Shown: piece after piece, positions 30,411-31,828 of the stretch | Position numbering within the stretch: the first letter of the stretch is position 1 | Layout of the letters: the number at the start of each line of letters is the position of its first letter | Source: Candidatus Thorarchaeota archaeon | Lineage (GTDB): Archaea; Asgardarchaeota; Thorarchaeia; Thorarchaeales; Thorarchaeaceae | Reading direction: 5' to 3' | DNA: 64,000 bases | NCBI GenBank assembly: GCA_046482545.1 | Contig: JAWOEX010000013.1 | Span: 52,318-116,317 of the forward strand | Program-made: the position numbers and the translations under genes | The notes under the pieces: generated by a model | Told to the model about the DNA's origin: nothing | Seen by the model: the letters and a program-made list of their open reading frames with translations, nothing else | The model's database searches: none

Positions 30411-31334
30411 ATGGATTTGACAGTTGTTGGTCATCTTAGTAGGGACCTCATCATTACGCCAGAGACTCAGAGGGAGGCTATTGGTGGAGGAACCGCTTAT
30501 GCTATGCTAGGACCATCGATTGGAGCGAAAACTAGGATAGTCAGCAAGGTGGGTCAAGATTTCGAAGAAGAATATCTGAGCGTGTTGCGCAATTCAGGTG
30601 TGGATTTATCTGCTCTCCACCAAAAATCAGGCAAATCGACCAGATTTGTGAATCGATATGACGAAGAAGGTAATCGTAGTCAGTACGTGGAGTCAGTAGC
30701 ACCTGATATAAGTGGCAATGACGTTGATGAGTCAATTCTCTCAGGAGTAATCGTCCATTGCTGCCCTCTTCTACGCGAAATCGAGACATCACTTCTTAGG
30801 CAAGCTGCAGAATCTGCTTCATTAATCTCGCTTGACATACAGGGATACCTTCGCAAGATTCAGGAACAGGAAGTGCGGCTGACAGATTGGCGAGACAAGA
30901 AGGAAATCCTTCCCCTTGTAGACATCGTAAAGGCTGATGAAAGAGAGCTTGAAGCCGCAACAAGTATCGCTGATGAACAAAAAGCGGCAGAACACGTCAT
31001 GGAGTTTGGACCATGCGTGCTTCTTGTAACACGCAACCGTCGAGGATCAACTATCTACACTCCGGCAGAGGCTGTGGATATTCCAGCGATTCCAGCTGAG
31101 GAGATTGTGGATACGACAGGTTGCGGTGATACCTATTCCATTGGCTTTCTTGTGGAATATTCCCGAACCGGTGATTTGTATTATTCAGGAATCTTTGCAG
31201 CCGCATGTGCATCTTACAATTTGGAGACAATTGGCCCGTACGGGATGCCTTCACGTCAGGATGTAGAATCAAGAGTACGCGAGTTTTACAAAAATCCTAA
31301 AAAATCTTGGTGCAGAAGTGTAAAAGATCTATAA
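30411..31334 (+). CDS. PfkB-family carbohydrate/nucleoside kinase with C-terminus replaced by element sequence
   Basis: GGGTAY and VDTTGCGDTY; the native tail SRIGEYL* is found at 31829-31852. Confidence 0.9.
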   Translation: MDLTVVGHLSRDLIITPETQREAIGGGTAYAMLGPSIGAKTRIVSKVGQDFEEEYLSVLRNSGVDLSALHQKSGKSTRFVNRYDEEGNRSQYVESVAPDISGNDVDESILSGVIVHCCPLLREIETSLLRQAAESASLISLDIQGYLRKIQEQEVRLTDWRDKKEILPLVDIVKADERELEAATSIADEQKAAEHVMEFGPCVLLVTRNRRGSTIYTPAEAVDIPAIPAEEIVDTTGCGDTYSIGFLVEYSRTGDLYYSGIFAAACASYNLETIGPYGMPSRQDVESRVREFYKNPKKSWCRSVKDL

Positions 31335-31828
31335 GATTTCCTGCAAGCCCGTTTCGGGCAACAAACGAGGGGAGTTTATTAGGTCTAGTACGGAACCCGG
31401 GTCCAGTAGGACTAGGCAAGTGGGCTAGTGCTGTGCACGACGCACGCGGCCGAAAGCTGTGAGGTAGACGCGTTCCACTAAGCAGAAGTCCTCACTCTCC
31501 ACACAGGAACTTCATCAGGTTTCGGAGAGTCCGCGGCTGTTCGCTTTGTCCAATTGGACCTGGCCAGCTTTGGTGACAAAGCTGGGCAGAGTGATAATAA
31601 CCCCGCCGTGGCAAAAGCTGTGGAAAACCTCGCTGTCCCCGGGAGTGATGTGTCCGGGTCAGGACAGGAGACAGAAGCCGAGACCGCAAGAGGGACCGTG
31701 TCCTGATGATGGCGGCCAAAGTCCTTGCTTGGCCGGGGGTAGCGCCCTGGTATAGTGGTGACACTGGGCAAGGGAAGGGTGGAATACAGGAGTTTCATGC
31801 AGTTGCTAAAACTGTAAGAAACGGGTTA
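31275..31828 (+). mobile_element. non-autonomous TnpB/omegaRNA-derived element, copy 4 (full length, 554 bp)
   Basis: Same left end as copies 1 and 6, same 3' hairpin; flanked by TCAAGA at 31269-31274 and 31829-31834. Confidence 0.93.

What the first reader, a model, noticed from the sequence alone, without database searches (positions are those of the whole stretch)
31275..31415. Full-length cassettes share a ~130-bp left end with its own promoter-like box and repeated TGTAA motifs
Seen: copies 1, 4 and 6 begin with TWAC-A..ATCCTA...AAGTGTAAAA...TRTAASATTTCCT...GAG(G/A)GGARTTTATTAG. This segment is absent upstream of the window's tnpB. The purine-rich+TTTATTA box (31375-31381, 9439-9445, 42172-42178) lies about 27 nt before the point where homology to tnpB begins (GACTAGG). 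TGTAA(G) motifs recur in this end and in the 3' hairpin (TGTAAGAAAC). Inference: a BRE/TATA promoter positioned to transcribe exactly the omegaRNA, plus binding sites for an unknown mobilising protein. These look like purpose-built guide genes rather than random deletion products.
Basis: partly seen in the sequence, partly recalled or inferred. Interest (0 to 1): 0.72.

Follow-up and report, generated by a model that had tools for sequence, protein, structure and literature searches.

The report
Promoter-carrying left end of guide-RNA mini-transposon
The 134-base "left end" is real and has two parts: the outer tip of a large Cas1-like/TnpB jumping gene of a Thorarchaeota (Asgard) archaeon, and an inner piece found only in its gene-less miniature copies, which looks like a promoter for the guide RNA. 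This is an informative variant of an element type that is already known.

Summary
Observation confirmed. Window 31275-31828 is a 554-bp gene-less mini-transposon flanked by a 6-bp duplication, TCAAGA. Two sister species have the empty site. The genome holds 25 full copies and 44 copies of its left-end/guide-RNA junction.

The left end is composite:
- The outer ~69 nt carries TGTAARA heptamers. One lies 9 nt from each terminus. This part is identical to the tip of 8.3-kb parent elements that carry a giant protein, tnpB and the omegaRNA.
- The giant protein's N-terminus folds like the Cas1 catalytic domain (Z 8-9.9).
- The inner ~65 nt is never found in a parent. It holds a conserved purine block plus TTTATTAG, exactly 34 nt before GGACTAGG in 41 of 42 copies.
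- GGACTAGG is where tnpB homology and the first omegaRNA helix begin.

Mini-elements in other genera use different sequences but also place a TATA-like box 28-35 nt upstream. Their heptamer switches (TGTCAGA) at both ends together.

Best reading: a transposase-recognition module plus a mini-element-specific promoter that makes the guide RNA independent of tnpB mRNA. No transcription data exist. The BRE call is not supported. "Purpose-built" overstates it: these are selected deletion derivatives.

This scan has reported the same element family several times in this genome, and promoter-bearing omegaRNA minis in other Asgard genomes. Verdict: new variant of a known kind, moderate interest.

The parts
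31269..31274 (+). Left copy of the 6-bp target-site duplication, TCAAGA
   Evidence: It matches 31829-31834. The orthologous empty sites in G001:C141 and G002:C162 hold one copy only.
31275..31343 (+). Outer left-end module (transposon terminus). It holds TTTTACA at 31284-31290 (an inverted heptamer 9 nt from the tip), TGTAAAA at 31319-31325 and TATAAGA at 31330-31336, and ends in TTTCCTG.
   Evidence: The same sequence forms the left tip of the 8.3-kb parents E28 (C28:133340-141760) and E20 (C20:228480-236820), and of a G001 parent.
31344..31366 (+). Poorly conserved spacer, subfamily-specific in sequence and variable in length
   Evidence: Information content is near 0 at positions -65 to -43. 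The distance from the last heptamer to the TATA box is 33-38 nt in most copies and ranges from about 26 to 69 nt.
31367..31382 (+). Conserved purine block GAGGGGAG (31367-31374) plus TATA-like octamer TTTATTAG (31375-31382)
   Evidence: Information content is 1.0-1.7 bits per column over 40 unique copies. 20 copies match perfectly, and the box is 34 nt from GGACTAGG in 41 of 42 copies. It is kept in 10 of 10 sampled copies from two sister species.
31383..31408 (+). Promoter-to-start interval: conserved AGTACG, then a substitution-variable stretch free of indels, then conserved YCAGTA. The predicted start is near A31405.
   Evidence: One search gives the conservation profile. The start is inferred from the usual archaeal TATA-to-start spacing. 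That spacing is seen in this genome at tRNA-Val, tRNA-Asn and tRNA-Glu.
31409..31812 (+). omegaRNA scaffold, homologous to the last ~85 codons of tnpB plus its 3' region
   Evidence: Supported by blastn and tblastn and an alignment with full tnpB 3' ends. GGACU pairs with AGUCC as the first helix.
31813..31828 (+). Right terminus: heptamer TGTAAGA plus 9 nt (AACGGGTTA)
   Evidence: It mirrors the left tip geometry. Full-length elements share it.
31829..31834 (+). Right copy of the target-site duplication, TCAAGA
8983..9543 (-). Copy 4 of the mini-element. Its TATA box is at 9438-9445 and GGACTAGG at 9404-9411. TCTAGA duplications lie at 9544-9549 and 8977-8982.
41726..42278 (-). Copy 6 of the mini-element. 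Its TATA box is at 42171-42178 and GGACTAGG at 42137-42144. The target duplication has decayed.
62221..63858 (+). The window's tnpB (545 aa). The omegaRNA scaffold begins inside it at 63601 and runs off the window and contig end. This copy lacks the Cas1-like gene and the left tip.

Best explanation
The 134-nt left end of these ~555-bp mini-transposons is a composite of two functional modules.

Module 1 (about 69 nt, 31275-31343) is the left terminus of an 8.3-kb Thorarchaeota transposon. That transposon encodes a giant protein with a Cas1-like catalytic domain, a 224-aa protein, TnpB and a ~420-nt omegaRNA. The module's TGTAARA heptamers are the probable binding sites of the element's integrase. 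One lies 9 nt from each tip in inverted orientation, and two more lie inside the left end. The integrase inserts the element with a 6-bp TCNNGA duplication.

Module 2 (about 65 nt, 31344-31408) exists only in the miniature copies. It supplies a TATA-type promoter: a conserved purine block, TTTATTAG, a fixed-length spacer and a Py-Pu initiator. Transcription should start about 4 nt before GGACUAGG, the first helix of the omegaRNA.

In the parent, the omegaRNA can come from the tnpB transcript. A copy that has lost tnpB and its upstream region needs its own promoter. Only deletion derivatives that had one, and could therefore load TnpB supplied in trans by the few full copies, multiplied.

Shown here: the anatomy, the shared termini, the target duplication, the empty sites, the conservation pattern and the Cas1-like fold.
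Inferred: promoter activity, the start site, heptamer binding, and trans use by TnpB.
For: The element is mobile:
- Empty sites occur in two sister species.
- Matched TCNNGA sequences flank 14 of 25 copies, against 15% of mismatched pairs.
- The parents E28 and E20 are flanked by TCAGGA and TCTGGA respectively.

Outer module:
- It is identical in three parents from two species, and all three then continue TTACCTCGTGTGGG... instead of the promoter piece.

Inner module:
- nhmmer finds it only directly in front of omegaRNA starts, apart from one truncated copy in a nested insertion. It is never in a parent.
- The TATA box is exactly 34 nt from GGACTAGG in 41 of 42 copies, while its distance to the heptamers ranges from about 26 to 69 nt, mostly 33-38.
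- Conservation peaks at -41 to -27, -22 to -14 and -5 to +7, with a near-random spacer beside them.
- It is kept in 10 of 10 sampled copies from two other species.

Other genera:
- G008, G018 and G003 minis carry GAGGCTTAAATAGG 28 nt upstream.
- G005 minis carry CCTTATTAG about 35 nt upstream.
- Their sequences are otherwise not alignable to this one.
- The heptamer changes to TGTCAGA in both the left and right ends of the G008 family.

Other support:
- GGACU:AGUCC is the first scaffold helix.
- The parent's giant protein N-terminus (AF2 pLDDT 84.7) has Cas1 or casposase catalytic domains as its top 8 structural matches, at Z 9.9-8.0.
- TATA-like heptamers of this class are 5-9-fold enriched upstream of genes in this genome.
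- The TATA-to-start spacing seen at tRNA genes fits.
Against: - No transcript or start-site data exist.
- The G-rich block does not look like the A-rich sequence upstream of tRNA TATA boxes in this genome, so it may not be a BRE.
- Copies share ancestry, so part of the conservation and the fixed 34-nt spacing could be inheritance rather than selection.
- The Cas1 assignment rests on fold similarity at Z below 10 for a helical domain. Pfam Cas1, NCBIfam, PDB sequence search and Foldseek were all negative.
- How a guide that starts in the target duplication would find a fixed TAM is unclear, because the left flanks show no conserved motif.
- TATA enrichment upstream of genes partly reflects the AT-richness of intergenic DNA.
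Confidence: 0.6

Rival explanations
1. The inner piece has no function of its own. It is junction debris from the deletion that created the founder mini-element, and it looks conserved only because all copies descend from that founder.
For: All copies in the genus share one origin, and the fixed 34-nt spacing could be inherited. No similarity to any source sequence could be found, so the origin is unknown.
Against: The 23 nt just upstream are nearly randomised among the same copies, while the purine/TATA block holds 1-1.7 bits per column. Subfamilies that differ by 25% and by spacer length keep the box. Unrelated mini-element families in other genera also have a TATA-like box 28-35 nt before GGACTAGG.
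Confidence: 0.17
2. The conserved purine/TATA block is a cis-element for transposition rather than a promoter. For example, it could be a site for a DNA-bending host factor or a subterminal integrase site, comparable to IHF at CRISPR leaders.
For: It lies inside a transposon end. Cas1-type integrases can depend on bent leader DNA (own knowledge). The block is conserved in every propagating subfamily.
Against: Three full-length parents, themselves flanked by target duplications, lack the block at their left ends. Its distance to the tip and heptamers varies, while its distance to the RNA start is fixed.
Confidence: 0.1
3. The segment from the TATA box to GGACTAGG is degenerate tnpB coding sequence (codons ~447-460). 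In that case the box is the native internal omegaRNA promoter of tnpB, freed from coding constraint and sharpened, and not a newly acquired module.
For: Full tnpB genes carry TATA-like runs at the same position: CGTCGTTTACTTACGCTC in C20 and C23, CGTTTGATTAAGCTC in C28, and CGCCTTATTACGCTC in a G010 copy. A local A+T peak sits at -37. In genus G005, one mini-element's upstream 52 nt aligns significantly with tnpB coding DNA (z 6.2, p 0.0005).
Against: In this genus no alignment of the mini-element piece to any tnpB copy beats shuffled controls (z below 1). nhmmer finds nothing in the parents.
Confidence: 0.13

Closest known systems
omegaRNA-bearing PATEs and gene-less IS200/IS605 derivatives, and stand-alone omegaRNAs (Meers et al. 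2023, PMC10055086; Altae-Tran et al. 2021, as cited in PMC10691335)
   Same: These are protein-less, multi-copy mini-elements. They keep the transposon ends and the TnpB guide-RNA scaffold, and must use TnpB encoded elsewhere.
   Different: These copies make a 6-bp target duplication and have heptamer-bearing inverted termini. Their parent carries a Cas1-like protein, not a Y1 TnpA. The genome has only one Y1 gene, which looks truncated. They also carry a promoter module that the parent lacks.
aCas1-TnpB elements of Asgard archaea (Cas1H-Asgard-1/-2; PMC10691335, section 9)
   Same: The host is Asgard (Thorarchaeota). tnpB is linked to a Cas1-like gene, the locus is flanked by repeats, and a GTTCACTCA motif lies downstream of tnpB.
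   Different: The paper predicts the transposon but, in the text I read, gives no ends, target duplication, miniature derivatives or promoter. Here the Cas1 link rests on fold similarity only.
Casposons (Cas1-mobilised transposons; casposase structure 6opm)
   Same: They have a Cas1-family integrase candidate, terminal inverted repeats and a target-site duplication. The casposase is among the structural matches (Z 8.0).
   Different: Casposons duplicate about 14-15 bp and carry a family-B polymerase (own knowledge). Here the duplication is 6 bp. The Cas1-like domain is the N-terminus of a 1400-1900-aa protein, and the cargo is TnpB plus its omegaRNA.
Sense-overlapping (sot) RNAs of IS1341-type tnpB genes in haloarchaea (own knowledge; Gomes-Filho et al. 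2015, not read here)
   Same: These are archaeal guide-type RNAs that start inside or at the 3' part of tnpB, from their own promoter.
   Different: Those lie in intact tnpB genes of IS200/IS605 elements. Here the promoter sits in a gene-less derivative of a different transposon class.

Membership tests
Non-autonomous omegaRNA-bearing mini-transposon (MITE/PATE in the broad sense) | No protein-coding capacity, and short relative to the parent | tested here: met
   The element is 554 bp. Only the last ~85 tnpB codons remain, degenerate and without a start.
Non-autonomous omegaRNA-bearing mini-transposon (MITE/PATE in the broad sense) | Both termini shared with a longer, gene-carrying element | tested here: met
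   The left tip matches E28, E20 and a G001 parent. The right end matches full tnpB elements.
Non-autonomous omegaRNA-bearing mini-transposon (MITE/PATE in the broad sense) | Multi-copy, with insertion polymorphism | tested here: met
   There are 25 full copies, and empty sites in G001 and G002.
IS200/IS605 family (strict PATE) | No target-site duplication; mobilised by a Y1 TnpA | tested here: not met
   A 6-bp TCNNGA duplication is present. The only Y1 hit in the genome is a single gene at C24:6161-6457, unlinked to these ends.
Asgard aCas1-TnpB transposon (Cas1H-Asgard) | tnpB linked to a Cas1 homologue | tested here: inconclusive
   A 1590-aa or 1399-aa ORF lies next to tnpB in E28 and E20. 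Its N-terminal 200 aa match Cas1 catalytic domains at Z 9.9-8.0, which are the top 8 rows. Pfam PF01867, NCBIfam, PDB sequence search and Foldseek were negative.
Asgard aCas1-TnpB transposon (Cas1H-Asgard) | Locus flanked by repeats, with a GTTCACTCA motif downstream of tnpB | tested here: met
   There are inverted heptamer termini and matching 6-bp duplications around E28 and E20. GTTCACTCA is present in the right end.
Archaeal TBP/TFB promoter | A/T-rich TATA octamer centred about 26-27 nt upstream of the start | tested here: inconclusive
   TTTATTAG is fixed at -34 to -27 relative to the scaffold's first helix, and it belongs to the heptamer class enriched upstream of genes. The start itself is unmapped.
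Archaeal TBP/TFB promoter | BRE immediately upstream of the TATA box | tested here: inconclusive
   A conserved GAGGGGAG block is present. It is unlike the A-rich sequence upstream of tRNA TATA boxes in this genome.
Archaeal TBP/TFB promoter | Primary transcript start at the predicted place | not testable with these tools
   No RNA data were available.
Casposon | Cas1 integrase with a ~14-15-bp target duplication and a PolB gene | tested here: not met
   The duplication is 6 bp. No polymerase domain was found in the parent ORFs by Pfam.

The most novel reading that the evidence does not exclude
Gene-less copies of a Cas1-mobilised TnpB transposon acquired dedicated guide-RNA promoters independently in at least two or three Thorarchaeota genera. 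In this genome, about 40 promoter-equipped omegaRNA genes therefore feed about 5 TnpB genes. This would mean that expression of the guide RNA, and hence RNA-guided retention or homing in trans, is what selects which miniature transposons spread. It would also give defined ends, heptamer sites and a 6-bp target duplication for testing whether an Asgard Cas1 relative is a transposase.
Probability: 0.35. Interest if true: 0.7.

Novelty: new variant of a known kind. Interest (0 to 1): 0.5.

Why it matters
Gene-less transposon copies that keep a TnpB guide RNA are already known. How such copies express the RNA once the tnpB transcript is gone has seldom been addressed.

Here the anatomy shows a separate promoter module that the parent lacks. 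It sits at a fixed 34 nt from the first helix of the scaffold, and it has non-homologous counterparts in other genera. That is indirect evidence that guide expression is under selection in non-autonomous elements.

The same copies also give concrete test material for the predicted but untested Asgard Cas1-TnpB transposons:
- exact termini
- a heptamer 9 nt from each tip that co-varies between the ends
- a 6-bp TCNNGA target duplication

They also give a predicted 5' end for an unusually long (~420 nt) omegaRNA, which would help anyone trying to reconstitute this TnpB.

Tried and rejected
- Left end upstream of tnpB: blastn-short against 500 nt upstream of five tnpB genes found nothing.
- Origin of the inner module: nhmmer against both 8.3-kb parents found nothing (best E 0.87). 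Against the whole genome it hit only mini-element copies. Anchored alignments to tnpB coding DNA or to the other genera's modules were not better than shuffles in this genus. Derivation from the tnpB promoter or from tnpB codons therefore stays unproven.
- tnpB's own upstream TATA boxes as a comparator: the proximal one is only 10-17 nt from the ATG, so I dropped it as a clean control.
- Cas1 by sequence: Pfam, NCBIfam, PF01867 across the genome, and phmmer and profile searches against PDB sequences were all negative. Foldseek was not significant. Only VIA-align gave Cas1 hits.
- IS200/IS605 peel-and-paste mobilisation: rejected because of the target duplication and the lack of a linked Y1 gene.
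- Rfam at gathering thresholds finds only tRNA-Sec in the window. The phage collection has no match.
- tRNA upstream regions as a promoter standard: only 21 tRNAs were detected and their spacing is mixed, so this is weak support only.
- Search for a conserved TAM in left flanks: none is evident.

Full report
**What is there**

The stretch 31275-31415 is the first 134 nt, plus the first bases of the RNA scaffold, of a 554-bp element spanning window 31275-31828.
- Two more full copies lie on the minus strand at 8983-9543 and 41726-42278.
- In the whole 3.05-Mb assembly the element has 25 end-to-end copies.
- There are 51 places where the conserved GGACTAGG start of the RNA scaffold occurs. Six lie inside tnpB genes, one lacks a left end, and 44 carry this kind of left end.

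**The element is a mobile miniature element**
- In two sister species of the same genus, the genes flanking copy 1 are contiguous and hold a single TCAAGA-equivalent hexamer. In the window, TCAAGA occurs on both sides of the insert, at 31269-31274 and 31829-31834.
- Across copies the flanking hexamer follows T-C-N-N-G-A, and the two variable bases match between the two sides of the same copy. 14 of 25 copies share at least 6 identical nt at the expected positions, against 15% of mismatched left/right pairs.
- The target duplication rules out classic IS200/IS605 peel-and-paste mobilisation. The only Y1 transposase hit in the genome is one unlinked gene, which looks truncated.

**The parent element**

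The suggested check was to search for the left end next to an ORF, and it gave a clear answer.
- Two 8.3-kb elements, C28:133340-141760 (E28) and C20:228480-236820 (E20), begin with the same outer left-end sequence and end with the same right end as the mini-elements.
- They are themselves flanked by matching hexamers: TCAGGA for E28 and TCTGGA for E20.
- They carry a giant ORF on the opposite strand (1590 aa in E28, 1399 aa in E20) and tnpB with the RNA scaffold. E28 also carries a 224-aa ORF.
- Homologues of the giant protein are all "hypothetical proteins" of Candidatus Thorarchaeota, which identifies the host lineage.
- Sequence libraries do not recognise the giant protein.
- An AlphaFold model of its strongly conserved N-terminal 300 residues has mean pLDDT 84.7. 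Its eight best structural matches are all Cas1 catalytic domains or a casposase, at Z 9.9-8.0 with 132-150 aligned residues. Foldseek alone was not significant.
- This fits the aCas1-TnpB transposons predicted for Asgard archaea, including the GTTCACTCA motif downstream of tnpB (PMC10691335, section 9).
- I treat the Cas1 assignment as probable, not proven.

**The left end is composite**

Outer part:
- It runs up to TTTCCTG (31275-31343) and is shared with the parents.
- Beyond that point, three parents from two species all continue TTACCTCGTGTGGGAGATAGACC....
- The mini-elements instead continue with a ~23-nt spacer, a conserved GAGGGGAG-TTTATTAG block, AGTACG, a variable stretch, and YCAGTA directly before GGACTAGG.

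Inner part (about 65 nt):
- A profile of it finds nothing in the parents.
- In the whole genome it hits only positions directly in front of RNA-scaffold starts. The one exception is a truncated copy with a second mini-element nested in it.
The fuller picture is that half of the segment is the parent's distant tip, and the other half belongs to the miniature copies alone.

**Promoter reading: evidence for**
- TTTATTAG starts exactly 34 nt before GGACTAGG in 41 of 42 copies that have a recognisable box, and 20 of these are perfect octamers.
- The distance from the last heptamer to the box ranges from about 26 to 69 nt, mostly 33-38.
- Information content peaks at -41 to -27, -22 to -14 and -5 to +7. 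The adjacent spacer is close to random, and the -13 to -8 stretch varies by substitution but not by length.
- With the usual archaeal geometry, the start would fall on the conserved pyrimidine-purine step at -5/-4, near window position 31405. That geometry is visible in this genome at tRNA-Val, tRNA-Asn and tRNA-Glu.
- GGACU pairs with AGUCC about 85 nt downstream as the first helix of the consensus fold, so the box is placed to transcribe the scaffold from its first structural element.
- All ten copies sampled from the two sister species keep the arrangement.
- Mini-elements of other genera in the family have left ends that cannot be aligned to this one, yet they carry GAGGCTTAAATAGG 28 nt, or CCTTATTAG/CCTTATCAG about 35 nt, before GGACTAGG.
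- TATA-like heptamers of this class (TTAATAG, TTATTAA, TAATTAG) are 5-9-fold enriched upstream of long ORFs here, though part of that is general AT-richness of intergenic DNA.

**Promoter reading: caveats**
- There are no RNA data.
- The G-rich block is unlike the A-rich sequence upstream of the tRNA TATA boxes, so I do not endorse the BRE label.
- Shared descent inflates the apparent conservation.

**Where the inner module came from**

This is unresolved.
- Full tnpB genes have TATA-like runs in frame at the equivalent place (CGTCGTTTACTTACGCTC, CGTTTGATTAAGCTC) and a local A+T peak at -37.
- In genus G005, one mini-element's upstream 52 nt aligns significantly to tnpB coding DNA (z 6.2).
- A native internal promoter that was retained and sharpened is therefore a live alternative.
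- In the window's genus, however, no such alignment beats shuffled controls.

**The TGTAA motifs**
- The heptamer TGTAARA or its complement sits at +10 to +16 from the left tip in 21 of 25 copies, at about +45 and +56, and 9 nt from the right tip. The outermost left and right copies therefore form mirror-image termini (heptamer plus 9 nt).
- Background frequency is 0.26 per kb.
- In the G008 family the heptamer is TGTCAGA, and it is TGTCAGA in both the left and right ends.
- This co-variation between the two ends is what one expects of binding sites that co-evolve with the element's own integrase.
- Binding itself is untested.

**How it most likely works**
1. The Cas1-like protein of the few complete elements recognises the heptamer-bearing tips and inserts both full and miniature copies at TCNNGA, duplicating 6 bp.
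2. A full element can make the omegaRNA from the tnpB transcript. Processing of tnpB mRNA into omegaRNA is known for ISDra2 (own knowledge).
3. A miniature copy has lost tnpB and everything upstream of it. Only versions with their own promoter produce the RNA and can engage TnpB supplied in trans by the five intact tnpB genes.
4. That gives about 40 guide genes for about 5 nuclease genes.
5. One open point is how a guide that begins in the target duplication finds a fixed TAM. I saw no conserved motif in the left flanks.

**Comparison and novelty**
- Gene-less IS605 derivatives that encode omegaRNAs and depend on TnpB in trans are described (PMC10055086).
- Earlier reports in this scan noted this same element family in other windows of this genome, and promoter-bearing omegaRNA minis of IS605/IS607 type in other Asgard genomes. 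I used those notes as leads and re-tested the parent element, the Cas1 link and the target duplication myself.
- What this finding adds:
  - the two-module anatomy of the left end
  - a promoter module that is not inherited from the parent's end
  - the fixed 34-nt spacing
  - the heptamer geometry and its co-variation between ends
  - non-homologous equivalents in other genera
- Verdict: a new variant of a known kind, of moderate interest, with clear experiments attached.

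Noticed in passing
window 8502-8588 (+): A selenocysteine tRNA gene (Rfam RF01852, 60.4 bits) lies about 400 nt from mini-element copy 4.
   Followed up: no
window 58823-63858: The window's tnpB is a stripped copy. Only about 115 nt upstream of its ATG match the 8.3-kb parent, and the Cas1-like gene and left tip are missing. Upstream lie an AbiEi/AbiEii-like toxin-antitoxin pair (60192-62011) and a radical-SAM ORF (58885-59988). 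The radical-SAM ORF is directly preceded by a right-end fragment of the element (58823-58883).
   Followed up: partly
window 31275-31283 versus 31413-31421; also G000 C41:16773: In several subfamilies the left tip begins TAGGCAAGT, the same 9-mer that follows GGAC at the omegaRNA start. In one genomic copy (C41) the target hexamer is joined straight to TAGGCAAGTGGGC, as if the whole left end had been lost by recombination between these two repeats.
   Followed up: no
window 31795-31815 and the right ends of full elements (L030, L031): PMC10691335 describes a 'hypervariable region' next to GTTCACTCA as a possible guide. Here it looks like the two arms of a hairpin (CAGTTG...CAACTG) around a GTTCACTCA loop. 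Most mini-elements lack the 8-nt loop and keep a shorter hairpin.
   Followed up: partly
L030 and L031 (reverse strand), about 20-120 nt upstream of tnpB: Full elements have two TATA-like octamers about 95 nt apart upstream of tnpB, bracketing a conserved hairpin (GAGTTCA...TGAACTC). The distal one sits 23 nt before the hairpin. The proximal one is only 10-17 nt from the ATG, so its role is unclear.
   Followed up: no
window 31383-31391 versus 31409-31417: The sequence just after the TATA box (GCCTAGTAC in most copies, GTCTAGTAC in copy 1) is nearly the reverse complement of GGACTAGGC at the RNA start. This potential 7-bp hairpin spans the predicted start. It is not conserved in all subfamilies.
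   Followed up: no
G000 C9:359471-359745: This is a nested insertion. A truncated left end of one mini-element is interrupted by a second copy's left end.
   Followed up: no
window 34403-34555, 14034-14092, 25592-25672: These are short decayed fragments of the same element family (70-85% identity to internal or right-end parts).
   Followed up: no
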